Part shown: one piece after another, positions 12,703-29,835 of the stretch
How the letters are laid out: the number at the start of each line of letters is the position of its first letter
Position numbering within the stretch: the stretch's first letter is position 1
NCBI GenBank assembly: GCA_017938725.1
Contig: JAGBAW010000026.1
Span: 9,014 to 73,013, forward strand
Length of the DNA: 64,000 nt
DNA from: Bacilli bacterium
GTDB lineage: Bacteria > Bacillota_I > Bacilli_A > RF39 > UBA660
Reading direction: 5' to 3'
The notes under the pieces: generated by a model
Database searches by the model: none
What the model was told of the DNA's origin: nothing
What the model saw: the letters and a program-made list of their open reading frames with translations, nothing else
Made by a program: the position numbers and the translations under genes

Positions 12703-13221
12703 GTGAAGAGTATGTATTATTATTTAAACTATTTTTTTATTTTTTCAATACTTGGTCACTTATTAGAAACTATTATATTTACAATATTTGACTGGAATTT
12801 AGAAAGTGGATTTTTATATGGATATTGGACGCCAGTATATGGATTAGGTGCAGTCTTGATATTATTAATATCAAAATTCATATTTAAAAAACTTAATGTA
12901 AACAAATTTTTGGAAATCATTATTTTTTTAATTGTTATAACACTGGTATTAACCTTGATCGAATTTATAGGAGGAAATCTATTAGAGTCTCTATTTAAAA
13001 AGGATTTTTGGAATTATTCAAATCATAAATATCATTATGGTAAATATATTGCGCTTGATATATCCATTATATGGATGATATGTTCTTTAATATTTTTATA
13101 TTTAATAAGACCTTGGATGGATAAAATAATAAATAAAATACCTAAATTTTTTACTAACTTATTTATTGTATTTTTTATTTTAGATTTAATTTTTACAATA
13201 ATTAATAAAGTAAAAATTTAA
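12703..13221 (+). CDS. Integral membrane protein (CmpB/DUF-like)
   Basis: Four or five TM helices; overlaps and follows the carboxypeptidase gene. Confidence 0.4.
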   Translation: MKSMYYYLNYFFIFSILGHLLETIIFTIFDWNLESGFLYGYWTPVYGLGAVLILLISKFIFKKLNVNKFLEIIIFLIVITLVLTLIEFIGGNLLESLFKKDFWNYSNHKYHYGKYIALDISIIWMICSLIFLYLIRPWMDKIINKIPKFFTNLFIVFFILDLIFTIINKVKI

Positions 13222-13501
13222 ATTGTATAAATTCTACTACTTTTCTTTTAAATAAATAAAGCCCTTATGTAAAATAAGGGCTAGATATTTTACCAAAAAA
13301 ATATAATATATGTTGACTAAAAAATAACAAGGTAAAATATCTATAAATATTATACAAGATAAAAATGTTTTTTACTATATTAAAGTTTATAATTTAAAAA
13401 AATAAGTAAAGTAATACGTGTTATTATTGACTAAATTTGTCTAAAAATGTATACTTATATATATAATGGGAAAAATAAAAGAATAGTAGAGGAGTAAAAA
13501 C

Positions 13502-16500
13502 ATGGGTAATAAATTAAAAAAATTAAATAGTTTGCTTTTATTTATGTTCTTAATGTTTCTTTCTACTACAATAGCATATGCAGGATTATCCACGAAACTT
13601 GCGATAACAGCAGAAGCTAAGTTTAGACCAGTAGCAGATATAAGAGTGACAGGTATTAGTTTATCAAGTGTTACTGGTTCCGCAAGGTTACAATATGAAC
13701 CTGAGTATAATGTTAACTCCACAACTACGGGTTTTATACTTCCTGATACTAGTTCAACAATAACATATAAAGTAACTGTTGCTAATAATGGAACTATTGA
13801 TCAAACTATATATAATATGATAACAGCAAGTACAAATAATAATAATGTTTCATATACAATATCAGGTTATAATTTAAAAGATCCTATTCCTTTTAAAAGT
13901 AGTGTAACTTTTTATATAACATTTAAAACAACTTCAGGAAGTAATACTACAATAAATTATAAAATAAACTATGATTTTAGAAAATTATATAAAGTAGAAT
14001 ATGATTCAAATGGTGGAGAAAATGTTCCTGAAAATCAAATGAAATATGAAAATGTTGATTTAACTATTACGAGTGATATACCAACAAAAGAAGGATATAA
14101 ATTTAAAGGATGGAGTGATTCTAAAACAGATGGCACAATAAAATATACACCAGAGAGCAATTACACATTAGATAAGGATATTCTTTTATATGCAGTATGG
14201 GAAATAAATACGTATAAATTAGATTTAAGTTATAATGTAGATGGTACCTGGTATTATGAAGGTTATAATAACAGAATACTTACAGGAATAAAAGTAGATG
14301 GGATAGATAAAGGTTATCTAAATGATTTTGATTTAAATGTCGGATACGGAAAAGAATATGAAATATATGGATTCAAATTAGATGGCGTTAACATACCTTA
14401 TTCAAAAAAATACATAGTAGATGGCACAAATCATTTAAATATATCATTTTATACTATTAATTTTGTTGTTAATAATAACGAGTATGGTGAAGTTGATACT
14501 CAAAATTTAATAGTGTTACCTGGTACAACATTTGAGCCTTTAGCAAGTACATTAACATTATCTGATTCTAGAAAAGTAAAGGCATCATTAAAGAACTTAG
14601 AAGGATATACAACAGAATTTTCAAATTTTACATATAATCCTAATAGTACAACTATAAATTCAAAAACAACAATAACTGCAAATTTTACAAGGAAAATTAA
14701 TCAATATACATTGACTGTTAAACCAAATGGTGGTACATGGGATAATAGCACAAATGACAAGACATTTAAACAAAATTATAATACCACTAGAAAAATCTTA
14801 GTACCAAGCAGTAATGCCTATTATTCAATTAGTTATGATGCAAATGGTGGTACAATATTATCATCAGGTAATATAACGGCGAGTAGAGATTTTACAGGAT
14901 GGTCATTGACTGGTAAGGGAAGTATAACAAAAACTGAACCTCTTTCCTCATCTTTTCAAACATATACTTATGGTGCAAGTGACGATGTATTAACAGCAAA
15001 TTATAATAGTACTGCAAATACTATAACAACAGCAACAGTAAGAAGAAGTCATACAATAACATATAATGCAAATAATACAGGTGCATCGATAGGAAAACTA
15101 AGTGAAAAAATATCAGATGTAATGAATGGTTGGTATACAAAGGCTAGTGGTGGAGAAAAAAGAGCAGAAAATGGAGGAAAATATGCCCCAACAGCAAGTG
15201 AAAAATTATATGCACAGTGGACAAAGGGAACAGTAACACTTCCAACAATAAAAAAGACAGGTTATACATGTTCATTTAATACAAAGGCTGATGGAACAGG
15301 AACAAGTTATGAATCAGGTTCATCAGGTTATTCAATAGACTCTGATACAACTTTATATGGTATTTGTGAAGCAAGTAGTTATAAAATAACTTGGGATAGA
15401 AATTATTTAGATTCAAGTTTATGGACAGATACACATTTAACAAATAGATATAGTTCGTCAGGCACGGCTCCTACAGCTAAAACAACAATAACTGATAATA
15501 CTGTAAAATATGGACAATATATAGAATTTACAATGCCTACAGGAACAAGTAGAGGTCCATATTATCTTAATTCAACTTATTTAACAGCTGGAAGTACATA
15601 CACATGGAGTGTATACGTAAAGGCAAGCTCAGCAAAAACATTGATTATTGGACAAGAACAGGGAGGAACGCAAACTGTAAATGTAACTACGAGTTGGCAA
15701 AAATTAACATATACATTTACGGCAAAAGAATATCAATATAAAGGATTTATATTCTATCTTACATCTGGATCTACATGGAGTGAAGGCGATAAATTATATG
15801 TACATTCATTAGAAATAATGGAAGGAACACCAACCAATACAACATCTACAAAAACATATGGAGCAACATTAGGAACGCTTCCTACACCAGATTCAAGAAT
15901 TGGTTATACATTTAATGGGTGGTTTACATCTGCAACAGGTGGTACTAAAATAAACAGCTCAACAGTTGTAAAAAGTGACTCAACATATTATGCAAAATGG
16001 ACACCTAATACATATGCAATATCGTTAGATAATCAGGACGTAACGACAACAGGTACACAAACAATTTTTGAAAAATACGAAACAGGTATATATTTAGATG
16101 AAAATTTAACACAAGTAATGACTACAAGTACTAATTCAATAAGAAAACCAATAAAAAATGGATATACATTTAAAGGGTATTATACTGGTAAAGATGGTAC
16201 TGGCATTCAAATGATAGATGAAAATGGATATATTACTGGTAATTTAACAAATAATAAATACACATCTAATACAACTTTATATGCATATTGGAAAATTAAT
16301 AAAGTAAATATACAATATGATATGAACGGTGGAAGACTTGGAACTATAAATAATAATGATATATCTACTTCCGGTTCATTGATTACATATCAAGGTACAA
16401 CAATAATACATGCTCTAGATTATGGATCTAAGTTAGGAGAATATGGCCTTTATGATTATAATAATCCAGGATTTATCAACTTGGTTAGAACTGGATATTA

Positions 16501-19294
16501 TATAAATTCAAATTATGTATGGAATAAAAACCCAGATGGTACAGGTAGGTCGTATAATCAGGTTACTCAATATTCTGCAAGTGATTTTTGTGATGCAAGC
16601 TATGGTGATTGTACAATGACTTTATACGCTAATTGGTATCCAAATGCATTAATATTTGATAATCAAACAAAAGATATAACACGTAGTACAAATGCCCAAA
16701 CAATAGAAATAACAGGTGCAAGTAATGGGACAGGAAATTATATATATAGTGAGATATCAGAGAAGAATTCAAGTAATACTGCTACAAATTACATAAGTAT
16801 ATCAGGAACAACAATAACAGTCGCAGCAAATATACCAGCAGATACATATAAATATGTAATAAGAGCAACAGATAGTAATTCAAATGTTACAAAGGATGCA
16901 ACCATTACAATTAAAGTAAATAAGTTAGATAATCCAATTGTTGTAACAGCAACTGATTCAGAATATACTGGTTCTTCACAGCCTCTAGTATCAGTTAAAA
17001 ATGCTCAAGGGAATGTATATTATAGTACTAGTACACAGTTAACAAGTTCAAATTATACAAGTGGTAGTACAACTATTCCAAGTGCTACTAATGGTGGAAC
17101 ATATACAGTTTACTATTATGTTACAGGCAATGATAATTATAATTCTAAATCTGGAAGTGTTGAATCTACAATATCTTATTTAACATATGAAATTAGACTA
17201 GATAATAAGGATGCAACAACACCAGGAACTTCTGTTATATATGGTAGATATGGCGATGGAATATATTTGGATAGTAATTATACAAAACATATGACTTTAA
17301 ATTCAAATCCGATAACAATACCTAAAAGAGAATATAATTTAACCTTAAATTACAATGACGAGTATTCGACAACAAGTGATAACTTAAAAGTAGATTATAC
17401 CTTCCTTGGATATATTAATACTGAAGCATTAGTCACGTACATAGATGGTAATGGATACTTACAAACTATGAATGAGTTTAATGGATTAGATGTTCATAGT
17501 AATGAAGCATTACAAACAGCAACTGTTGAATGGGAATATAATGGAGTAACACTTCCAACAGAAGTAGCAAGATTAGATTATACTTTCCTTGGATGGTATA
17601 CTAATGCGATTGGAGGAACTAAGGTAACTAACTCTACAGAAATTACTGAGGATACTACAATTTATGCTCATTGGATACAAAATCCAGCAATAACTGGTGG
17701 TAGTGATGATTGGACTAATACTTCAAGAACAATATCTGTAGAAGAAAATGGTAGATATGTTACAGATGTCGAAATTACAAAATATCAATATTATAAGTCA
17801 ACAAGTTCTATGTCACTTGTAGGTGGTACTTGGACAGATTGTACTACATCATCTACATCTCAAACATTTACTGATGAGGGAGAATATTATATATTCTTTA
17901 GGTCTGTATCATCACAAGGGTATAGTAATCCATCAAACTCTCAAATTGTAAGAATTGACAAAACAGCGCCAGGAGCTACATCATCAAAAATTAGATACGA
18001 GTCATCAACAGGAAAAGAAGCGCAAAATGATACATGGACAAATAGAACATTATGGTGGGGTGATTTTACCGCAAACGATACATTATCCGGTATAAATCAT
18101 TATGAATATTCAGATGGTTGTACAGGAACTAAGAGCGGAAATTTAGAATCATATACATCTGAAGACGACAAGGTACGTGCATTTTGTATAAGAGCAGTTG
18201 ATAATGCAGGTAACGCTGGAGCTTGGTCAGAACCTTATGTCTTTAAGGTAGATAAAACACCACCAGAAATTGCTCAATCAAAAATTAGATATGATTCATC
18301 AACAGGAGCAGAAAGAACTAATGCCAATACATGGACAAACAAAACGTTATGGTGGGGTGATTTCTTCGCATGGGATAATTATCCTACAGCTGAGAATTAT
18401 GGTGCTGCATCCGGTATAAATCATTATGAATATTCAACTAATTGTACAGGTGAGAAAACCGGTAACCTATCATCAGAATATACATATGATACACAAATTA
18501 ACTGGACTTTCTGTATAAGGGCAGTTGATAATGCAGGTAACGCTGGAGCTTGGTCAGACCCTTATTACTTTAAGATAGATAAAACATCACCAAAAATTCT
18601 TGGTACAATCAAGTATACTACTAAATCATGCTCCTGGTCAGGAAGTTGTACTGTAGCAAATCAAAGTGAGTCTATACTAAATGCAAATACTACTATAAAT
18701 GGATGGAATTCTTTTGATTATGCCGTTGATTGGACAGAAACTATTGATGAAGGTGGTTCAGGTATAAAATCCGTTACATGGTCAATTAATGATGAAGGAG
18801 CTTCCTCATTAACATCGGATACTAAAAAACTTGTTACCGTGGTTAATAAGGGAACAACACCATCTAATTGGACGCAAAACATTTCAACCGCAGGTGCTAG
18901 ATATGCAGAAATCAAGGTTGAGGATAATGCTGGTAATATAAGAAAAGTGTATATTACTACTTATGTCGATAAAGTTAACCCAAAAATAACACTAAAAGCG
19001 TATAAAACTAATACAACGACCCAAGTTAGTTCTGGCACTACATCTGATAAATATCTTTCATTTATTGCTACTACAACTCAGATAGGATTAGGTGGCGGTA
19101 CAATTAAATACTGTGGTTCAAGAACAAGAGGATGCACTCCTAATCTTACTACAACAAGTGGAGCAAGGATTAATAGATGGTATAATGGTGATAATGCTCA
19201 TACTACAGGAACATGGTATGTAAATGCCTGCATAATGGGGAATAATGGAACTATATATTGTGTACCTGAGTTTACAGCAAAGGTAAGCCCTTAG
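13502..19294 (+). CDS. Giant secreted multidomain surface protein with Listeria-Bacteroides (Flg_new) repeats and an MBG-like domain
   Basis: Signal peptide. Repeated GY(T/K)FxGW...GGTK...TLYAxW modules. No LPXTG motif and no C-terminal TM. A TTGACT-N17-TATACT promoter lies at 13428-13456. Confidence 0.8.
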   Translation: MGNKLKKLNSLLLFMFLMFLSTTIAYAGLSTKLAITAEAKFRPVADIRVTGISLSSVTGSARLQYEPEYNVNSTTTGFILPDTSSTITYKVTVANNGTIDQTIYNMITASTNNNNVSYTISGYNLKDPIPFKSSVTFYITFKTTSGSNTTINYKINYDFRKLYKVEYDSNGGENVPENQMKYENVDLTITSDIPTKEGYKFKGWSDSKTDGTIKYTPESNYTLDKDILLYAVWEINTYKLDLSYNVDGTWYYEGYNNRILTGIKVDGIDKGYLNDFDLNVGYGKEYEIYGFKLDGVNIPYSKKYIVDGTNHLNISFYTINFVVNNNEYGEVDTQNLIVLPGTTFEPLASTLTLSDSRKVKASLKNLEGYTTEFSNFTYNPNSTTINSKTTITANFTRKINQYTLTVKPNGGTWDNSTNDKTFKQNYNTTRKILVPSSNAYYSISYDANGGTILSSGNITASRDFTGWSLTGKGSITKTEPLSSSFQTYTYGASDDVLTANYNSTANTITTATVRRSHTITYNANNTGASIGKLSEKISDVMNGWYTKASGGEKRAENGGKYAPTASEKLYAQWTKGTVTLPTIKKTGYTCSFNTKADGTGTSYESGSSGYSIDSDTTLYGICEASSYKITWDRNYLDSSLWTDTHLTNRYSSSGTAPTAKTTITDNTVKYGQYIEFTMPTGTSRGPYYLNSTYLTAGSTYTWSVYVKASSAKTLIIGQEQGGTQTVNVTTSWQKLTYTFTAKEYQYKGFIFYLTSGSTWSEGDKLYVHSLEIMEGTPTNTTSTKTYGATLGTLPTPDSRIGYTFNGWFTSATGGTKINSSTVVKSDSTYYAKWTPNTYAISLDNQDVTTTGTQTIFEKYETGIYLDENLTQVMTTSTNSIRKPIKNGYTFKGYYTGKDGTGIQMIDENGYITGNLTNNKYTSNTTLYAYWKINKVNIQYDMNGGRLGTINNNDISTSGSLITYQGTTIIHALDYGSKLGEYGLYDYNNPGFINLVRTGYYINSNYVWNKNPDGTGRSYNQVTQYSASDFCDASYGDCTMTLYANWYPNALIFDNQTKDITRSTNAQTIEITGASNGTGNYIYSEISEKNSSNTATNYISISGTTITVAANIPADTYKYVIRATDSNSNVTKDATITIKVNKLDNPIVVTATDSEYTGSSQPLVSVKNAQGNVYYSTSTQLTSSNYTSGSTTIPSATNGGTYTVYYYVTGNDNYNSKSGSVESTISYLTYEIRLDNKDATTPGTSVIYGRYGDGIYLDSNYTKHMTLNSNPITIPKREYNLTLNYNDEYSTTSDNLKVDYTFLGYINTEALVTYIDGNGYLQTMNEFNGLDVHSNEALQTATVEWEYNGVTLPTEVARLDYTFLGWYTNAIGGTKVTNSTEITEDTTIYAHWIQNPAITGGSDDWTNTSRTISVEENGRYVTDVEITKYQYYKSTSSMSLVGGTWTDCTTSSTSQTFTDEGEYYIFFRSVSSQGYSNPSNSQIVRIDKTAPGATSSKIRYESSTGKEAQNDTWTNRTLWWGDFTANDTLSGINHYEYSDGCTGTKSGNLESYTSEDDKVRAFCIRAVDNAGNAGAWSEPYVFKVDKTPPEIAQSKIRYDSSTGAERTNANTWTNKTLWWGDFFAWDNYPTAENYGAASGINHYEYSTNCTGEKTGNLSSEYTYDTQINWTFCIRAVDNAGNAGAWSDPYYFKIDKTSPKILGTIKYTTKSCSWSGSCTVANQSESILNANTTINGWNSFDYAVDWTETIDEGGSGIKSVTWSINDEGASSLTSDTKKLVTVVNKGTTPSNWTQNISTAGARYAEIKVEDNAGNIRKVYITTYVDKVNPKITLKAYKTNTTTQVSSGTTSDKYLSFIATTTQIGLGGGTIKYCGSRTRGCTPNLTTTSGARINRWYNGDNAHTTGTWYVNACIMGNNGTIYCVPEFTAKVSP
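17957..18577 (+). repeat. In-frame tandem duplication of about 300 and 330 nt inside the giant gene
   Basis: Two units start with gataaaaca/gacaaaaca. Identical stretches such as agggcagttgataatgcaggtaacgctggagcttggtcaga occur twice. A third unit starts at 18578. Confidence 0.6.
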
Positions 19295-19313
19295 TTTATA
19301 AATAAAAAAATTT

Positions 19314-19345
19314 AACTTATCTCTTTTGAGGTAAGTTATTTTTTG
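19314..19345 (+). terminator. Rho-independent terminator (copy 1 of a duplicated module)
   Basis: Stem aacttatctc / loop tttt / stem gaggtaagtt, followed by a T-run. Confidence 0.55.
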
Positions 19346-19469
19346 TGCAAAAGTTAAATAATTTTATGTTTTAAAAAATAAAATTAATTGTTATATAATA
19401 GGATATATGTTTTTTTACTATAAACAATTTTGAATTTAAGTCATATAAATATTATAGGGAGGAATTAAT

Positions 19470-20390
19470 ATGAGTAATAGTAAACTTGTAAATTATACCG
19501 ATTTAACAACACACTATGGATCAAGAAATGGAACTAAAATTGATAGAATCACGTTACATCATATGGCAGGCAACCTAGCTGTTGAAGCATGTGGTAATGT
19601 ATTTAAGACTAGAGAAGCATCGTCTAATTATGGAATAGATAATGATGAAAGAGTTGGACTATATGTGGACGAGTCAAACAGAGCCTGGTCAACAGCAAAT
19701 CCGTCAAATGATAGAAGGGCAGTTAATATTGAACTTGCAAATGATAGTGGCGCTCCAGATTGGCATGTGTCAGATAAAGTAATTAATAAATGTATTGAAT
19801 TATGTGCTGATATATGTAAGAGAAATGGAATATTAAAGTTAAGTTATGATGGAACAGAAAATGGTAATTTAACTGTGCATAATATGTTTATCTCAACAAC
19901 ATGTCCTGGTCCATACCTTCAAAGTAAACTTTCTTATATTGCTGATGAGGTAAATAAAAAATTAGAAAATTCTGATGATAGGACACCACCTGTGGAAGGG
20001 ATTACAGCAACCATTCAAAATACGCTAAATTCTAGATATGGTTATAATATAGTGGTAGACAATATATATGGCCCTGATACACATAAGCATATGGTAAAAG
20101 CATTACAACATGAATTTAATATTCAACTTGGATCAAAGATAGCGGAAGATGGAATATTTGGTCCAAGAACAAAAAGCTCGTGTCCTGTACTTAGAAGTGG
20201 AATGAAGGGTAATATAACATGGTTAGTACAATCAATGTTAGTAATTAAGGGATATAAATTAGATAAATATGGAATGGATAGTGTATATGGAAATGAGACA
20301 ATTAATGCAATAAAAAAATTTCAAAGTACAGCCAAATTAAGTGTTGATGGATTATGCGGTAAAAATACATTTGAAAAATTATTTAGTTAA
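19470..20390 (+). CDS. N-acetylmuramoyl-L-alanine amidase (PGRP/amidase_2) with two C-terminal peptidoglycan-binding repeats
   Basis: ITLHHMAG amidase_2 start; GIFGPRT and VDGLCGKNT PG_binding_1 repeats. No signal peptide, so endolysin-like. Confidence 0.75.
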   Translation: MSNSKLVNYTDLTTHYGSRNGTKIDRITLHHMAGNLAVEACGNVFKTREASSNYGIDNDERVGLYVDESNRAWSTANPSNDRRAVNIELANDSGAPDWHVSDKVINKCIELCADICKRNGILKLSYDGTENGNLTVHNMFISTTCPGPYLQSKLSYIADEVNKKLENSDDRTPPVEGITATIQNTLNSRYGYNIVVDNIYGPDTHKHMVKALQHEFNIQLGSKIAEDGIFGPRTKSSCPVLRSGMKGNITWLVQSMLVIKGYKLDKYGMDSVYGNETINAIKKFQSTAKLSVDGLCGKNTFEKLFS

Positions 20391-20396
20391 AATAAG

Positions 20397-20427
20397 ACTT
20401 ATCTCTTTTGGGGTAAGTTTTATTTTA
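20397..20427 (+). terminator. Rho-independent terminator (copy 2 of the duplicated module)
   Basis: acttatctc / ttttg / gggtaagtt, then a T-run. Near-identical to 19314-19345. Confidence 0.5.
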
Positions 20428-20591
20428 TCAAAAATATATTAAATTTATATATTCAGGTAAAGAGTTTTGTAAATAATAAAAAATTAATTGTAGAAAATAT
20501 ATAATTAGTATAAAATGAAATGCAAAAATAAAATATTATTGATTTGGCAATAAAAAAATAAAGTGATATCCTTAGAAAAAAGGAGGATATA

Positions 20592-21575
20592 ATGAATAAA
20601 GTCAGATATAAAAAATTAAAACCAGGAGAAATAATACCATTAACATGTGATTTCATGTTTACAGAAATATTTAATAATGAAAAAAATATGGATATAATAG
20701 AAAGTTTTATATCAAGTTACTTTGGAATAGGAATAAAAGATATCAAAGGAAATATAAAAATAATGTCAAGAAATTTAGGGATAGAAAATAAAAAAGAAAA
20801 AAATAAACAAATAGATTTATTATTAGATTATAAAGGAAATAAAATAAACATAGAATTAAATAATGATGGACCAAAAGGAAAAGGAGAAAGAAATATAGTA
20901 TATGCAAGTAAAGTACATTCAAAGAATCTAAAATATGGGGAAAGAAATTATGTAAATATATCAAAAACATTACAAATAAATTTAAACAACTATAGTTGTA
21001 ATGAGGATAGATTGATAGAAAACTATTATCTAAGAAATGAAAAAGGAAAAAAGTTAACAGAAAAGTTACAAATAGACATAGTAGATATGGAAAAAGCAAA
21101 AGATATATGTTATAATGCACATAATGAGAGAGAAAAAAGAATACAAAAATGGTGTTTAGCATTACAATCAAGAACTCTATTAGAATTAAAAAAGAATTTG
21201 GGAGAAGATATAATGAGTAAAGAAACTAAAGAGAAATTAGTAGAAAAAGTAGAAGAGTTAAGTGAAGATGAAGAGCTAATATGTCTATATACAGAATTAA
21301 GTGATAGGGAGTTAACATATAATACAATGTTATATGAAGAAACAGAAAAAGCAAGAGAAATAGCAACTAAGGAAGGTTTAGAGGAAGGAAGAAGGCAAGG
21401 AATCGAGCAGGGTATCGAACAAGGTATTGAGCAAGGTATCGAACAAGGTATTGAACAAGGTGAAAAGAGTAAATCCCTTGATATAGCTAAAAATATGTTA
21501 AAAGAAGATACCGATATTAACTTTATATCAAAAGTTACTGGTTTACCAATTGATCAAATTGAAGCTTTAAAATAA
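20592..21575 (+). CDS. Rpn/YhgA-family PD-(D/E)XK recombination-promoting nuclease / putative transposase
   Basis: N-terminal PD-(D/E)XK-like region IDLLLDYKGNKINIELN and a C-terminal (GIEQ)n tail typical of Rpn proteins. Confidence 0.6.
   Translation: MNKVRYKKLKPGEIIPLTCDFMFTEIFNNEKNMDIIESFISSYFGIGIKDIKGNIKIMSRNLGIENKKEKNKQIDLLLDYKGNKINIELNNDGPKGKGERNIVYASKVHSKNLKYGERNYVNISKTLQINLNNYSCNEDRLIENYYLRNEKGKKLTEKLQIDIVDMEKAKDICYNAHNEREKRIQKWCLALQSRTLLELKKNLGEDIMSKETKEKLVEKVEELSEDEELICLYTELSDRELTYNTMLYEETEKAREIATKEGLEEGRRQGIEQGIEQGIEQGIEQGIEQGEKSKSLDIAKNMLKEDTDINFISKVTGLPIDQIEALK
21399..21458 (+). repeat. Five tandem 12-nt repeats encoding (GIEQ)5
   Basis: ggaatcgagcag ggtatcgaacaa ggtattgagcaa ggtatcgaacaa ggtattgaacaa. 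Confidence 0.7.
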
Positions 21576-21610
21576 GGCTTTAATTATAAAGGTAAACTAT
21601 GTATATTGTT

Positions 21611-22243
21611 CTAATATAACAATTTTATCCTATTTAATTTTGTCTCAATAAAACCTTCTATTTTTAAATTTTTTATTTCTCTCATTAAAGCACTTCTATC
21701 AACTCCTAAATAGTCAGCAAGTTCTGTATAATTAAATTTAAGGTAAAATGATTTAGAAAGATTTTCTTTTTCTTGAATTTTAAAGTATTCAAGAAGTTTT
21801 TCCCTAATTGTTTTTTTTGTTAATATATCTATTCTATTATTCATATTTGATACCTTATGTGCTAGCATTTGGAGCATATTATTAATAACTTCATTGTGGT
21901 ATGGGCAAGATTTCTTGCATCTTTTTATTATGTGGTCATAATCAAATGTAATAACAGTACAATCTGATATAGCAATTACAGATAATTCATCACTATAAGA
22001 AGTAAATACTTCTCCAAATATTGAACCTTTTTCTAATTTTTCTAAGATAATTCTATTACCATTATAATCATTTTTAATTAGATTCGCATTCCCATCGATT
22101 ATTATTCCTATTATATTTGTATTTGCAAGATTTGATATTATAGTTGTATCTTTTTTATAAGCTATAGATTTTGCATTAAAACAATTAAGCATAGACTTTA
22201 CATTTTGTTCGTCAATACCTTTAAATATAGTAATTTCGTTCAT
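21611..22243 (-). CDS. Crp/Fnr family transcriptional regulator
   Basis: cNMP-binding beta-roll (GEVF) and a C-terminal HTH (LADYLGVDRSALMREIKNL). Divergent from nrdD. Confidence 0.75.
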   Translation of the reverse strand: MNEITIFKGIDEQNVKSMLNCFNAKSIAYKKDTTIISNLANTNIIGIIIDGNANLIKNDYNGNRIILEKLEKGSIFGEVFTSYSDELSVIAISDCTVITFDYDHIIKRCKKSCPYHNEVINNMLQMLAHKVSNMNNRIDILTKKTIREKLLEYFKIQEKENLSKSFYLKFNYTELADYLGVDRSALMREIKNLKIEGFIETKLNRIKLLY

Positions 22244-22379
22244 TTATAAGGCCTCCCAACATTTAATTTTTTTAATAAATAAACTAATTTAATTATATTT
22301 CAAAAAAGTTGCAAATGCAACACTATAATTAAAAAAACTTTGATATAATGATAATGTAAAAATAGGAGGAGAAAGTAGT

Positions 22380-24506
22380 ATGAAAGTTGTAAAAAGAGAT
22401 GGTAATACAGTTAATTATGATAGGAGTAAAATAAGAATTGCTATTGAAAAAGCAAATACAGAAGTTGATCCAAAGGAAAGGGCATCATCCAAGCAAATAG
22501 ATAATATTATTAAATATATTGAGGATATGAAAAAGAAAAGAATGCTAGTTGAAGACATTCAGGATGAAATTGAAAAAAAATTAATGGAGTATAAAAAATT
22601 TAATCTTGCAAAGGCTTATATTGTATATAGATATAATAGAGCCTTAATTAGAAAAGCAAATACAACAGATGAGTCAATACTTAGATTAATTAGGAATGAA
22701 AATAAAGAATTAGCGGAGGAAAACTCTAATAAAAATACAATGCTTGCTTCAACTCAAAGAGATTATATTGCGGGAGAAGTATCAAGAGATCTAACAAAAA
22801 GAATTATGCTTCCAGAAAAAATTTCAAAGGCACATGAAGAAGGTGTATTACATTTTCATGATGCAGATTATTTTGTTCAACCAATATTTAATTGTTGTTT
22901 AATTAATATATCAGATATGCTTGATAATGGGACTGTTATGAATGGTAAATTAATTGAAAGTCCAAAATCATTTCAAGTAGCATGTACTGTAACAACACAA
23001 ATAATTGCGGCAGTTGCCTCTAACCAATATGGTGGGCAGTCTGTTGATATGAAACATTTAGGTAAATATTTAAGAAAGAGTTATGAAAAATTCTATAGTA
23101 AAATTGAAAAAAAATACGGTAAAGAATTAAATAAAAAACAAATAGAGGAATTAGCAAAGGATAGACTAAAAGATGAATTATCTGCAGGCGTTCAGACAAT
23201 TCAATATCAAATTAATACATTAATGACCACAAATGGACAATCTCCTTTTGTAACTTTGTTCCTACATCTAGAAGAAGGGGATCCTTATATTGAAGAGAAT
23301 GCAATGATAATTGAAGAGATATTAAGACAAAGACTTCAAGGTATTAAAAACGAAAAAGGAGTATATGTAACACCTGCATTCCCTAAACTTGTATATGTTT
23401 TAGATGAACATAATGCGCTAAAGGGAGGTAAATATGATTATTTAACTAAACTTGCTTGTGAGTGTTCTGCTAAAAGGATGTATCCTGATTATATATCCGC
23501 AAAAAAAATGAGAGAAATTTATGAAGGTAATGTATTTAGTCCAATGGGATGTAGAAGTTTCTTATCTCCATGGAAAGATGAGAAAGGTAATTATAAATGG
23601 GAAGGTAGATTTAATCAAGGTGTAGTATCAATTAATTTACCTCAAATTGGTATATTATCTGAAGGAGATGAAGAAAAGTTCTTTAAAATTTTGGATGAGA
23701 GACTTGAGATTTGTAAAGAAGCTTTAATGTGTAGACATCATGCACTTCTTGGAACGCTGTCTGATACATCTCCAGTACACTGGCAATATGGTGCTATTTC
23801 AAGGCTTAAGAAAGGTGAAAAGATTGATAAGTTATTAAAGGGTGGATATTCAACATTATCATTAGGTTATATAGGCATATATGAGACTACAAAACTTGTA
23901 AAAGGTGTTTCACATACTACTGAAGAAGGAGAAAAATTTGCTCTTAAATTAATGAAATATTTAAGAAAAGCCTGTGATACATGGAAAAAGGAAACTGGAC
24001 TTGGTTTTGCGTTATATGGAACTCCAGCTGAAAGTTTATGCTACAGATTTGCTAGAATAGATAAAGAAAAATTTGGTAGTATAAAAGATATTACTGATAA
24101 AGACTATTATACAAATTCTTATCATGTTGATGTTAGGGAAAAAATTGATGCATTTAGTAAGTTAAAATTTGAAAGCCAATTTCAACCTATATCATCTGGT
24201 GGATGTATATCATATGTTGAAATACCTAACATGCAAAAAAATCTAGATGCATTAGAGGAACTAGTTAAATTTATATATGAAAATATTCAATATGCTGAAT
24301 TTAATACTAAGTCTGATTATTGTCATGTTTGTGGATTTGATGGTGAAATTATAATAAATGATAACAATGAATGGGAATGTCCAAATTGTGGGAATAAAGA
24401 TCATTCAAAGATGAATGTTGCAAGAAGAACCTGTGGATATCTTGGTGAAAACTTCTGGAACGTTGGTAAGACAAAAGAAATAAAGGCTAGGGTAACACAT
24501 TTATAA
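22380..24506 (+). CDS. nrdD: Anaerobic ribonucleoside-triphosphate reductase
   Basis: N-terminal ATP-cone, a C-terminal Zn ribbon (CHVCG...CPNCG) and the glycine-radical motif RRTCGYLG. Confidence 0.95.
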   Translation: MKVVKRDGNTVNYDRSKIRIAIEKANTEVDPKERASSKQIDNIIKYIEDMKKKRMLVEDIQDEIEKKLMEYKKFNLAKAYIVYRYNRALIRKANTTDESILRLIRNENKELAEENSNKNTMLASTQRDYIAGEVSRDLTKRIMLPEKISKAHEEGVLHFHDADYFVQPIFNCCLINISDMLDNGTVMNGKLIESPKSFQVACTVTTQIIAAVASNQYGGQSVDMKHLGKYLRKSYEKFYSKIEKKYGKELNKKQIEELAKDRLKDELSAGVQTIQYQINTLMTTNGQSPFVTLFLHLEEGDPYIEENAMIIEEILRQRLQGIKNEKGVYVTPAFPKLVYVLDEHNALKGGKYDYLTKLACECSAKRMYPDYISAKKMREIYEGNVFSPMGCRSFLSPWKDEKGNYKWEGRFNQGVVSINLPQIGILSEGDEEKFFKILDERLEICKEALMCRHHALLGTLSDTSPVHWQYGAISRLKKGEKIDKLLKGGYSTLSLGYIGIYETTKLVKGVSHTTEEGEKFALKLMKYLRKACDTWKKETGLGFALYGTPAESLCYRFARIDKEKFGSIKDITDKDYYTNSYHVDVREKIDAFSKLKFESQFQPISSGGCISYVEIPNMQKNLDALEELVKFIYENIQYAEFNTKSDYCHVCGFDGEIIINDNNEWECPNCGNKDHSKMNVARRTCGYLGENFWNVGKTKEIKARVTHL

Positions 24507-28975: not shown

Positions 28976-29407
28976 ATGAAAACATTTATGGCAAAACCAG
29001 CCGAAATTAAACGTAATTGGTATGTTATTGATGCAACAGGTATAAGTTTAGGTCGTGTTGCAACTAAGGCTGCATCTGTATTACGTGGAAAACACAAAGC
29101 AATTTATACACCTAATGTTGATTGTGGAGATTATGTAATAATAATCAATGCTGATAAAGTTAAACTTACAGGAAATAAGCTAGAACAAAAAATGTATTAT
29201 AATCATAGTGGTTATACTGGTGGATTAAGAGAAAGAACTGCTAAAGTAATGCTTGAAAAATATCCTGAAGAAATGATGGAAAGAGCTATTAAGGGAATGC
29301 TTCCTCATAATAGACTTGGTCGTAAAATGGGTAAAAAACTATTTGTATACAGAGATTCTAATCACAAACAGATTGCTCAACAACCAAAAGAAATGAAAGT
29401 AGACTAA
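28976..29407 (+). CDS. rplM: 50S ribosomal protein L13
   Basis: [20 protein letters not shown]. Confidence 0.95.
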
Positions 29408-29418
29408 GGAGGAAAATT

Positions 29419-29835
29419 ATGGCAAATAAAATTTATTATGGAACAGGTCATCGTAAAGCATCTATTGCAAAAGTAAGAATGACATCTGGTAAAGGTAATA
29501 TTACTATAAATGGAAGAGATGTTAATGAATATTTACCATTTCCAACATTAGTTATGGATTTAAAACAACCACTAGAAGCAACTAATACATTAGATAAATT
29601 TGATATTAATGTAGATGTTAAAGGTGGAGGATTCTCAGGACAAACTGGAGCTATTCGTTTAGGTATAACAAGAGCATTATTAGAATATGATAAGAATACT
29701 GACCCTGCATCAGAAACTTCTTTTAGGAGAATTCTAAAAATGAAAGGGTTTATTACCAGAGATTCTAGAGTTAAAGAACGTAAGAAACCGGGCCTTAAAA
29801 AGGCACGTAAAGCACCACAATTTTCAAAACGTTAA
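29419..29835 (+). CDS. rpsI: 30S ribosomal protein S9
   Basis: C-terminus [17 protein letters not shown]. Confidence 0.95.

What the first reader, a model, noticed from the sequence alone, without database searches (positions are those of the whole stretch)
19296..20530. Amidase gene bracketed by near-identical terminator-plus-spacer modules and followed by an Rpn transposase-like gene
The two intergenic segments share the 22-nt hairpin acttatctcttttgNggtaagtt and a downstream aaaattaattgt...tatataat block. One follows the giant surface gene at 19314-19345. The other follows the PGRP-type amidase at 20397-20427.

The amidase therefore looks like a cassette inserted by duplication of the flank. 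An Rpn/YhgA PD-(D/E)XK recombination-promoting nuclease gene is the next gene. The amidase has no signal peptide, so it is endolysin-like.
Basis: seen in the sequence. Interest (0 to 1): 0.5.

Follow-up and report, generated by a model that had tools for sequence, protein, structure and literature searches.

The report
Duplicated phage terminator around orphan endolysin
Two almost identical 23-base terminator hairpins do bracket a cell-wall amidase gene, but they are copies of a phage lysin's own terminator inside an ordinary 8.4-kb species-specific gene islet, so this is not a new kind of mobile cassette.

Summary
The core observation holds. ACTTATCTCTTTTG[A/G]GGTAAGTT occurs exactly twice in the window, at 19315-19337 and 20397-20419. 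Both copies fold as A-tract/hairpin/U-tract terminators. The claimed shared "spacer" block is not beyond chance.

Context changes the reading. In the five closest species, CmpB and crp converge with overlapping stop codons. The whole 8.4-kb block of giant adhesin, amidase and rpn (about 13222-21610) is therefore a species-specific islet.

The amidase's closest relatives (60-71% identity) are all phage endolysins at the end of lysis cassettes, six of seven with a recognised holin just upstream. Five of the seven contigs carry a homologous terminator (ACCTATCT...AGATAGGT) after the gene. T2 is therefore the endolysin's native phage terminator.

T1 shares private derived states with T2: a compensatory U-A pair and the TTTT loop. 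It is a sister copy. It sits 20 nt past what looks like a rearrangement junction ending the adhesin ORF.

The rpn gene fits the published toxin/intragenic-antitoxin defence family, not a transposase. How the hairpin was copied is unresolved. Overall this is ordinary mosaic genome evolution, of low interest.

The parts
13222..21610 (.). Species-specific 8.4-kb islet between the stop codons of CmpB (+) and crp (-). It holds the giant adhesin, the amidase and rpn.
   Evidence: In the five closest species (L005-L009; crp 73-88% and nrdD 88-93% aa identity), CmpB and crp abut with overlapping stops. No giant, amidase or rpn homologue occurs in any of the 65 related loci. The islet is present and identical in all same-species contigs.
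13260..13282 (.). Bidirectional terminator-like hairpin AGCCCTTAT-GTAAA-ATAAGGGCT at the left edge of the islet.
   Evidence: Flagged on both strands by the terminator scan. Its 5' arm shares the 9-mer AAGCCCTTA with the end of the giant ORF.
13502..19294 (+). Giant secreted repeat protein (1930 aa), an InlB B-repeat / Flg_new adhesin-like protein. Probably 3'-truncated.
   Evidence: Pfam Flg_new and TIGR02543. N-terminal signal-like segment. Homologues of 1.3-3.3 kaa share only the N-terminal 400-950 aa. The ORF ends ...FTAKV|SP*, where its own repeats read FKVDKTPP and homologues read AKVDKTAP and continue for at least 450 aa.
19285..19293 (+). AAGCCCTTA, the second of only two exact copies in the window. 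It supplies the last codons of the giant ORF. Putative rearrangement junction 20 nt upstream of T1.
   Evidence: (0.40 expected in the window; 2 found, both on the + strand at module edges).
19315..19337 (+). T1 terminator hairpin ACTTATCTC-TTTT-GAGGTAAGT. A-tract at 19305-19314, T-tract at 19338-19345.
19370..19399 (+). Promoter-like site (TTTAAA-18-TATAAT) upstream of the amidase.
   Evidence: Consensus scan only. Such sites are not enriched over shuffles, so this is weak. 12-mer statistics are.
19470..20390 (+). Orphan phage-type endolysin: N-acetylmuramoyl-L-alanine amidase (Amidase_2) plus PG_binding_1, full length, with no holin upstream.
   Evidence: (phrog_7698 endolysin, E=2e-48). The closest homologues all lie in lysis cassettes. 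The H30/H137/C145 columns are invariant across 25 homologues. No phage homology upstream of the ATG. No holin or amidase remnants in the flanks.
20397..20419 (+). T2 terminator hairpin ACTTATCTC-TTTT-GGGGTAAGT, T-tract to about 20427. It is the endolysin's native phage terminator.
   Evidence: Its position and linker match the phage relatives: taaAATAAG+hairpin here versus taaAATAAA+CCTATCT... in L070, L237 and L259.
20470..20521 (.). Segment inferred, not observed, to be an exact repeat found elsewhere in the genome or metagenome.
   Evidence: k=31 Logan contigs from independent samples stop at 20499 (one contig seen in 6 samples) and start at 20492 (contigs from at least 4 samples). That is the signature of a 52-nt repeat or a structural variant. 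ENA assemblies read through.
20521..20591 (+). Upstream region that travels with rpn, including the conserved ATAAAGTGATAT at 20558-20569 (extended -10-like).
   Evidence: Alignable with the upstream regions of the two closest rpn homologues, which sit in unrelated housekeeping contexts.
20592..21575 (+). rpn gene (PDDEXK_2 / TIGR01784). It has a conserved internal Met208 (21213) with an SD-like GGGAGAAG, and a (GIEQ)x5 four-residue repeat at 21399-21458.
   Evidence: Interpreted with PMC10400941.

Best explanation
The region is a mosaic 8.4-kb islet lodged between two convergent housekeeping genes. It holds three independently acquired, separately transcribed genes.

The amidase is a phage endolysin captured without its holin but together with its own Rho-independent terminator, T2. 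T1 is a sister copy of that terminator: about 23-35 nt, possibly up to 60 nt. It arose by local copying or homogenisation, either in the donor phage or in the islet. It now lies 20 nt beyond a junction that cuts the giant adhesin ORF short.

Functionally, both hairpins act as intrinsic terminators. T1 ends adhesin transcription and keeps read-through out of the amidase. T2 ends the amidase transcript and insulates rpn, which has its own conserved upstream region. The rpn gene is a solitary toxin/intragenic-antitoxin defence-type gene that landed next door. Nothing shows that it moved the amidase.

Shown: the duplication, the hairpin folds, the absence of the islet in sister species, the phage origin of the amidase and of the T2 family, and the private shared states of T1 and T2.

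Inferred: terminator activity, the truncation junction, and the order and mechanism of the events.
For: The hairpin is unique to two sites, with 0 expected, and both sites give strong folds. The islet is absent in the five nearest species, where the CmpB and crp stops overlap.

Seven close amidase homologues (60-71%) all lie at the end of phage or prophage late operons. Six of the seven have a Pfam holin just upstream. PHROG assigns endolysin.

The terminator family AC[C/T]TATCT(C)-loop-(G)AG[A/G]TA[G/A]GT plus a T-run follows the endolysin in L070, L071, L233, L235/6 and L237. In L070 and L237 (and L259) the stop-to-hairpin linker matches that of T2. In an 8-sequence alignment, 93% of cells are paired, against 29-47% when the partners are slid. 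The single compensatory pair (C-G to U-A) is found only in T1 and T2, as is the TTTT loop. The phage loops all differ from one another.

L237 shows that relatives can carry two direct copies 637 nt apart. No phage homology lies upstream of the amidase ATG.

The giant ORF ends at a domain linker where homologues continue. That point coincides with a 9-mer shared with the islet's left terminator.

The closest rpn homologues are single-gene insertions between ftsZ and rlmN and between rnj and ftsK, and they share upstream sequence with the window's rpn. The published function of Rpn is from PMC10400941.
Against: - Only five distinct phage relatives carry the terminator family. Similar ACCTATCT/AGATAGGT hairpins also occur in 8 other AT-rich IMG/VR contigs in other contexts. 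The stem type is therefore not exclusive to endolysins.
- The hairpin is far better conserved between T1 and T2 (1/23 mismatches) than the adjoining ~35 in-register bases (13/35 mismatches). A simple recent segmental duplication does not predict this. It requires either a very short copy tract or gene conversion, and neither is demonstrated.
- No intermediate strain or species was found, so the order of events is inference.
- The rest of this genome was not available. The reproducible Logan contig break in IG2 hints at repeated sequence I could not see.
- The giant ORF ending at a domain boundary could be native. The 9-mer pair alone has p~0.06 window-wide.
- Terminator function is predicted, not measured.
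Confidence: 0.6

Rival explanations
1. The amidase, with its upstream spacer, entered as a cassette between the giant gene and rpn. A recombination event (Campbell-type crossover at the hairpin, or a long target duplication) left one copy of the resident terminator-plus-spacer on each side.
For: Direct repeats 1082 nt apart flank exactly one gene plus its promoter region. The homology may extend to about 60 nt. A single crossover between a circle carrying T and a resident T would give exactly this layout.
Against: The repeated hairpin belongs to the endolysin lineage, not to the recipient locus. A resident T would itself need an earlier phage origin. The spacers are not significantly alike. 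Sister species lack the whole block rather than the amidase alone. All 15 same-species contigs carry the same arrangement. Twenty-three to about 35 nt of identity is very short for homologous recombination (established knowledge on minimal processing segments, not tested here).
Confidence: 0.15
2. En bloc capture. T1, IG1, the amidase and T2 came together from a phage or prophage right arm in which two copies of the terminator already bracketed a module. The adhesin gene was later joined upstream of T1.
For: L237 carries two direct family members 637 nt apart, bracketing a small moron-like ORF just after its endolysin. TTGTGCAAAAGTTAAA follows T1, and TTGTGCAAAATTAAA precedes the distal terminator in L233, L235, L237 and L251. 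The junction at 19285-19293 suggests T1 is not native to the adhesin gene.
Against: In all seven close relatives the endolysin start abuts or overlaps upstream phage genes, with no terminator in front. IG1 shows no significant similarity to any phage flank. The GTGCAAAA motif is on the opposite side of the hairpin and is only a 10-mer plus a 5-mer.
Confidence: 0.15
3. Generic element. The hairpin is a dispersed multi-copy terminator or REP/MITE-like repeat of this genome, and the two copies flank the amidase by coincidence.
For: Only 64 kb of the genome could be examined. Logan contigs break reproducibly in IG2, as at a repeat. Similar stems occur in unrelated AT-rich phage contigs.
Against: No third copy occurs in the window with up to 5 mismatches. 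None occurs in about 2.2 Mb of related and phage loci. Exact-pattern scans of GTDB species genomes, IMG/VR and JGI metagenomes found nothing. The inferred repeat (20470-20521) does not include the hairpin.
Confidence: 0.06

Closest known systems
Endolysin gene plus Rho-independent terminator closing the lysis cassette of temperate Firmicutes siphophages (Amidase_2 + PG_binding_1 endolysins)
   Same: Same two-domain architecture. Identity to endolysins of phage contigs is 60-71%. A homologous terminator sits at the same distance after the stop codon.
   Different: No holin, no other phage gene, no integrase and no att-type tRNA nearby. The gene stands alone behind its own 175-nt intergenic region, with a second copy of the terminator in front.
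Phage 'morons' and prophage-remnant genes: a promoter-gene-terminator unit placed between other transcription units (concept from the phage genomics literature, recalled from memory and not checked here)
   Same: The layout is terminator, then promoter-like region, one gene, then terminator. L237 shows the same terminator pair bracketing a small extra ORF after its endolysin.
   Different: Here the bracketed gene is the endolysin itself, and the unit lies in a bacterial chromosome islet, not in a phage.
Rpn (YhgA-like) toxin with intragenic antitoxin RpnS, an antiphage defence system (PMC10400941; PMC5350276)
   Same: PDDEXK_2 / TIGR01784 membership. Single-gene, IS-like patchy distribution without inverted repeats. 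Four-residue repeats, (GIEQ)x5. A conserved internal Met with an SD.
   Different: The repeats start about 62 residues after Met208, whereas the paper reports 8-20 residues after the RpnS start. Met246 is the alternative start but has a poor SD. No functional test was done. There is no evidence linking it to the hairpin duplication.
Integron gene cassettes (attC) and MITE/REP dispersed hairpin repeats
   Same: A short imperfect palindrome recurs on both sides of a promoter-proximal single gene.
   Different: No integrase in the 10 kb on either side of the islet. Only two copies. The hairpin has a T-tract and an A-tract typical of terminators. It is linked to one gene lineage.

Membership tests
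Intrinsic (Rho-independent) terminator | Stable stem-loop immediately followed by a U-tract, placed just after a stop codon | tested here: met
   T1 starts 20 nt after the giant stop: 11-bp stem, TTTT loop, tail ATTTTTTG. T2 starts 6 nt after the amidase stop, tail TTTATTTT. Folding z-scores are -6.2 and -7.8. The scan flags T1 only.
Intrinsic (Rho-independent) terminator | Transcripts actually end there | not testable with these tools
   Needs Term-seq or RNA-seq of the organism, which is uncultured and known only from metagenomes.
Phage endolysin (amidase type) | Amidase_2 catalytic domain with Zn ligands, plus a cell-wall-binding domain and no signal peptide | tested here: met
   Pfam Amidase_2 at 66 bits and PG_binding_1 at 59 bits. 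The H30, H137 and C145 columns are invariant in 25 homologues. Their assignment as Zn ligands, and the match of their spacing to T7 lysozyme, rest on recalled knowledge. N-terminus without a hydrophobic stretch. PHROG endolysin, E=2e-48.
Phage endolysin (amidase type) | Encoded in a lysis cassette next to a holin within a phage or prophage | tested here: not met
   No holin or other phage gene lies within 10 kb, and there are no remnants in the flanks. Six of the 7 closest homologues do have a Pfam holin upstream. The gene is therefore phage-derived and orphaned.
Rpn family (TIGR01784 / PF12784) | Score above the curated cut-offs across the PD-(D/E)XK N-domain and the C-terminal region | tested here: met
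   PF12784 scores 73.9 bits against a cut-off of 27.4. TIGR01784 scores 65.4 bits against 52.1. Homologues carry PF27070 HTH_Rpn_C.
Rpn toxin / intragenic antitoxin system | Internal in-frame start producing the C-terminal RpnS, and a variable four-residue repeat | tested here: inconclusive
   Met208 is conserved in 57/60 homologues and is preceded by GGGAGAAG. (GIEQ)x5 lies at residues 270-289. The start-to-repeat spacing differs from the 8-20 residues reported. Translation was not tested.
Insertion sequence / transposon carrying the amidase | Transposase with terminal inverted repeats and a target-site duplication bounding the unit | tested here: not met
   T1 and T2 are direct, not inverted, repeats. 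No terminal inverted repeats were found around rpn or the amidase. Rpn proteins are judged not to be transposases in PMC10400941.
Integron cassette | attC site plus a neighbouring tyrosine-recombinase integrase and attI | tested here: not met
   The precomputed Pfam labels of the genes within about 10 kb on either side of the islet show no integrase. The rest of the window was not annotated. The hairpin is 23 nt with a U-tract, unlike attC sites of 57-141 nt (the size range is from memory).
Dispersed REP/MITE-type repeat | Many copies at unrelated intergenic sites of the same genome | tested here: inconclusive
   Two copies in the 64-kb window and none in sister-species loci or three public collections.
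Genomic islet (strain- or species-specific insertion) | Present in one lineage, with precise absence and conserved flanks in close relatives | tested here: met
   L005-L009 keep coatF, S11 peptidase, CmpB | crp, nrdD and nrdG, with the CmpB and crp stops overlapping.

The most novel reading that the evidence does not exclude
The endolysin-associated terminator hairpin is more than a terminator. It would be a portable module junction: a preferred site for illegitimate or structure-directed recombination. Phages of this group and their hosts would use it to bracket and shuffle single-gene units. Examples are the moron in L237 and the endolysin here. The neighbouring Rpn nuclease might act on such hairpins.
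Probability: 0.05. Interest if true: 0.55.

Novelty: new member of a known kind. Interest (0 to 1): 0.2.

Why it matters
It matters mainly as a corrected annotation. The hairpin pair marks a phage-derived endolysin that kept its own terminator after being stranded in a bacterial chromosome, inside a small islet that sister species lack. This is a tidy example of a regulatory element hitch-hiking with a captured gene and then being reused for a neighbouring, apparently truncated, adhesin gene. It also warns against reading 'Rpn transposase' annotations as evidence of mobility. It does not open a new mechanism or resolve an open question.

Tried and rejected
- Exact-pattern scans for the hairpin (ACTTAYCTCTTTTGRGGTAAGT) found nothing in GTDB species genomes, IMG/VR or JGI metagenomes. 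The species is not represented there, so genome-wide copy number could not be obtained.
- Alignment-seeded searches for amidase relatives in IMG/VR and JGI metagenomes returned only distant ones: at most 46% identity over the full length, and higher identity only over the catalytic domain. None had the hairpin. The informative relatives came from exact-protein look-ups, and all 12 look-ups are now used.
- A tblastn search for decayed amidase copies and a six-frame reading of the intergenic regions for holin remnants found nothing in the giant gene's 3' end, IG1, IG2 or the islet's left intergenic region. This weighs against a recent tandem duplication of the whole amidase unit.
- IG1, IG2 and the islet borders were compared with the phage flanks. 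Only short AT-rich words matched.
- Rfam found no known RNA family in 13000-22500. No tRNA lies near the islet.
- PADLOC gave no meaningful hit for rpn or the amidase. PDB sequence search matched only the PG-binding domain.
- Strain comparison found no polymorphism anywhere in the islet among same-species contigs, so there is no population signal of gain or loss.
- Chance convergence of two terminators was considered and rejected: 22/23 identity including the loop, with 0 expected.
Full report
**1. The observation**

The pattern ACTTATCTCTTTTGNGGTAAGTT matches at 19315-19337 and 20397-20419 and nowhere else in the 64-kb window, even with three mismatches allowed. None of the shuffles gave any match. 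A search allowing five mismatches found no third copy. The two copies differ at one base, A versus G, and that change keeps pairing (U-A becomes U-G).

Each 51-nt context folds into an A-tract, an 11-bp stem, a TTTT loop and a U-tract. The energies are -15.9 and -19.4 kcal/mol, with z-scores of -6.2 and -7.8 against dinucleotide shuffles. The consensus scan lists T1 as terminator-like. It did not list T2.

- 13502-19294: a 1930-aa Flg_new / InlB-B-repeat protein with an N-terminal signal-like segment.
- 19470-20390: a 306-aa Amidase_2 + PG_binding_1 protein without a signal peptide.
- 20592-21575: a PDDEXK_2 / TIGR01784 Rpn-family protein.

The "spacer" half of the observation does not hold up.
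- AAAATTAATTGT is present at 19380 and 20480. Two AT-rich spacers of these lengths share a 12-mer in 9% of shuffles, and 6% of comparisons with other low-GC windows do the same.
- Local alignment of the sequences downstream of the hairpins reaches only p~0.03-0.04, and it does not align the two blocks with each other. The 45 nt upstream give p=0.32.
- In register, identity is 44/58, and 22 of those matches are the hairpin.
- A gapped blastn hit of 61 nt at 79% exists, but an unrelated AT-rich pair in the window gets the same E-value.

The secure repeat is therefore the hairpin with its A- and T-tracts, about 23-35 nt and perhaps up to 60.

**2. Context: the whole three-gene block is an islet**

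The window has 26% G+C. It belongs to an uncultured gut "Bacilli bacterium" lineage known only from MAGs.

A scan of one genome per GTDB species with the neighbouring Crp-type regulator returned 65 loci. In the five closest (crp 73-88% and nrdD 88-93% identity) the gene order is coatF, S11 peptidase, CmpB | crp, nrdD, nrdG. CmpB and crp converge there, and their stop codons abut or overlap. None of the 65 loci contains a homologue of the giant protein, the amidase or rpn, apart from a 51-residue C-terminal rpn-like match in L026.

Window 13222-21610 (8.4 kb) is therefore an insertion relative to sister species.

Fifteen metagenomic contigs carry the identical crp protein, and all have rpn next to it. 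Those long enough also have the amidase and the giant gene. The islet is base-for-base identical among them. No strain lacking only the amidase, or only rpn, was seen.

No tRNA, integrase or other phage gene lies nearby. No Rfam family matches in 13000-22500.

**3. The amidase is a stranded phage endolysin, and T2 is its own terminator**

The amidase has thousands of homologues. The closest are 71%, 65%, 64%, 63%, 63%, 62% and 60% identical over the full length. I fetched the contigs of these seven.
- All seven lie at the end of a run of phage late genes: tail, collar and tape-measure genes, with an integrase and repressor beyond.
- Six have a Pfam-recognised holin one or two genes upstream. 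The seventh has small unannotated ORFs in that position.
- PHROGs calls the protein an endolysin (E=2e-48).
- The candidate Zn-ligand columns (H30, H137, C145) are invariant across 25 homologues, so the window's copy looks intact.

In the window there is no holin, and there is no homology to the phage sequence upstream of the start codon. No coding remnants lie in the flanks.

Five of the seven phage contigs have a hairpin plus T-run downstream of the endolysin, with the arms ACCTATCT(C) / (G)AG[A/G]TAGGT.
- In L070 and L237 it starts 5 nt after the stop, in the context taaAATAA-ACCTATCT. The window has taaAATAAG-ACTTATCTC.
- L071 even shares the same U-G wobble: ACCTATCTC / GAGGTAGGT against the window's ACTTATCTC / GAGGTAAGT.
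- An IMG/VR contig, L259, with a 43%-identical amidase has the same arrangement.

In an alignment of eight family members, 93% of cells in the nine-pair stem are paired. When the 3' partners are slid, only 29-47% are paired. Five pairs are invariant.

T2 is thus the orthologue of the phage endolysin's terminator. The gene and its terminator were captured together.

**4. T1 is the sister of T2**

T1 and T2 share two states seen in no phage relative.
- At the third stem position they have a U-A pair where all the phages have C-G. This is the only compensatory pair in the alignment.
- They share a TTTT loop, whereas the phage loops all differ from one another: GTAA, GTAAT, GAAAT, TGATT, TCG.

T1 and T2 are therefore each other's closest relatives. 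This is a copying event, not generic resemblance. At the one differing site, T1 keeps the state seen in L071 (A), so T2 changed after the copy was made.

What I could not establish is how a piece this short was copied 1082 nt upstream. The adjoining in-register bases are far less alike (13/35 mismatches) than the hairpin (1/23). No decayed second amidase copy exists. A recent tandem duplication of the whole gene unit is therefore unlikely.

Three routes remain possible:
- short-patch conversion between two pre-existing family members;
- a short illegitimate copy;
- duplication in the donor phage.

L237 shows that relatives can carry two direct family members 637 nt apart. One sits right after the endolysin. 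The other is preceded by TTGTGCAAAATTAAA. Between them lies a small reverse-strand hydrophobic ORF. A similar TTGTGCAAAAGTTAAA follows T1, but this is too short to weigh.

**5. T1 is probably not native to the giant gene**

The exact 9-mer AAGCCCTTA occurs twice in the window, against 0.40 expected.
- At 13259 it forms the 5' arm of the hairpin AGCCCTTAT-GTAAA-ATAAGGGCT at the islet's left edge.
- At 19285 it supplies the last codons of the giant ORF (...FTAKV|SP*).

The protein's own internal repeats read ...FKVDKTPP... and ...FKIDKTSP... at the equivalent point. Homologues align there as ...YVAKVDKTAP... and continue for 450 or more residues. Relatives share only the N-terminal 400-950 residues and are mostly 2000-3300 aa long.

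The simplest reading is that the ORF was cut at a domain linker by a rearrangement, and that T1, 20 nt further on, lies on the other side of that junction. This is inference. A protein may legitimately end at a domain boundary, and the 9-mer pair alone has p~0.06 window-wide.

**6. The rpn gene**

The two closest homologues with usable contigs (58% and 54%) are single genes. One lies between ftsZ and rlmN, the other between RNase J and ftsK. Neither has an amidase or adhesin nearby. About 70 nt upstream of the start codon, including ATAAAGTGATAT, is alignable among the three loci, so rpn travels with its own promoter region.

PMC10400941 reports the following:
- Rpn proteins are toxic endonucleases blocked by a C-terminal protein translated from an internal start.
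- They defend against phage.
- They vary in four-residue repeats.
- They show single-gene gain and loss without inverted repeats.
- They are "highly unlikely" to be transposases.

The window's gene has (GIEQ)x5 at residues 270-289. It also has an internal Met208, conserved in 57 of 60 homologues and preceded by GGGAGAAG. The spacing between that Met and the repeats is larger than the paper describes. Nothing links rpn mechanistically to the hairpin pair.

**7. An unexplained detail**

Logan (k=31) contigs of this strain break at the same place in IG2 in several independent samples. One contig, seen in six samples, ends at 20499. Contigs from at least four samples start at 20492. In a de Bruijn graph this is what an exact 52-nt repeat (20470-20521) elsewhere in the genome or community would produce, or a structural variant with 8-nt microhomology.

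I could not retrieve the other copy.

**8. Verdict**

The hairpin duplication is real and specific, and the amidase is a bona fide orphan endolysin. The best-supported account is ordinary: a mosaic islet assembled from an adhesin gene fragment, a phage lysin with its own terminator, and a solitary rpn defence-type gene, with the phage terminator present twice and insulating the three transcription units.

It runs against the finding that the repeat belongs to the amidase lineage. It also has no supporting intermediate.

Novelty: a new member of a known kind. Interest: low (0.2). The most novel reading still open is that this hairpin acts as a reusable recombination junction for single-gene modules. 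I give that about 5%.

Noticed in passing
window 13259-13267 and 19285-19293: The exact 9-mer AAGCCCTTA occurs only twice in the window. One copy is the 5' arm of the terminator hairpin at the islet's left edge. The other supplies the final codons of the giant ORF, which stops (..AKV|SP*) exactly where its own repeats and its homologues continue ..KVDKTxP plus at least 450 aa. This suggests the adhesin module was joined there by a rearrangement. If the segment were circularised through the 9-mer, the ORF would end ..SPYVK* inside a perfect terminator.
   Followed up: partly
window 20470-20521 (IG2): Logan k=31 contigs from several samples reproducibly end at 20499 and start at 20492. This is the signature of a 52-nt exact repeat elsewhere, or of a structural variant. 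No second copy lies in the window, and ENA assemblies read through.
   Followed up: partly
window 20592-21575 (rpn); 21213; 21399-21458: rpn carries five tandem GIEQ four-residue repeats. It also has an in-frame internal Met208, conserved in 57/60 homologues and preceded by GGGAGAAG. The internal start context even resembles the main start (GAGGATATAATGAATAAAG versus GAAGATATAATGAGTAAAG). This fits the published RpnL/RpnS gene-within-gene system.
   Followed up: partly
window 20521-20591; L239 1580-1648; L242 6930-7000: About 70 nt upstream of rpn, including ATAAAGTGATAT (window 20558-20569), is conserved among rpn genes inserted at unrelated housekeeping sites. rpn therefore appears to move with its own promoter region.
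   Followed up: partly
L005-L009 (e.g. L006 around 9030): In sister species the convergent CmpB and crp genes have stop codons that abut or overlap by about 2 nt, with no intergenic terminator. The islet in the window sits exactly between those stops.
   Followed up: yes
L237 8921-9590: A prophage right arm with two direct copies of the endolysin-type terminator, 637 nt apart. They bracket a small reverse-strand ORF with a strong SD. From my own reading of the sequence it encodes about 45 aa and is hydrophobic (type-I-toxin- or moron-like). Two GCACAAT...ATTGTGC hairpins sit before the distal copy.
   Followed up: partly
window 17957-18598: The giant gene contains tandem domain repeats of about 100 aa (period about 294-327 nt, 72-91% DNA identity) with the motif RAVDNAGN...KVDKTPP. 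One Logan contig starts inside this repeat region.
   Followed up: no
window 29339-29514 (rplM/rpsI) versus L001: All 23 differences between the window and a same-species contig over 20.9 kb are clustered in 175 nt spanning the L13/S9 genes. This looks like a short recombination patch in otherwise identical strains.
   Followed up: no
L002 about 15107-15130 (window about 24598): One same-species metagenome contig has a 1-nt insertion that splits nrdG (activase of the anaerobic ribonucleotide reductase). It could be an assembly error or a pseudogene.
   Followed up: no
window 13502-19294, 19470-20390 versus neighbours: The giant gene and the amidase have 31-32% G+C. The flanking CmpB, crp and S11 peptidase genes have 20-24%, and rpn has 25%. 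This is mildly consistent with foreign origin of the first two.
   Followed up: no
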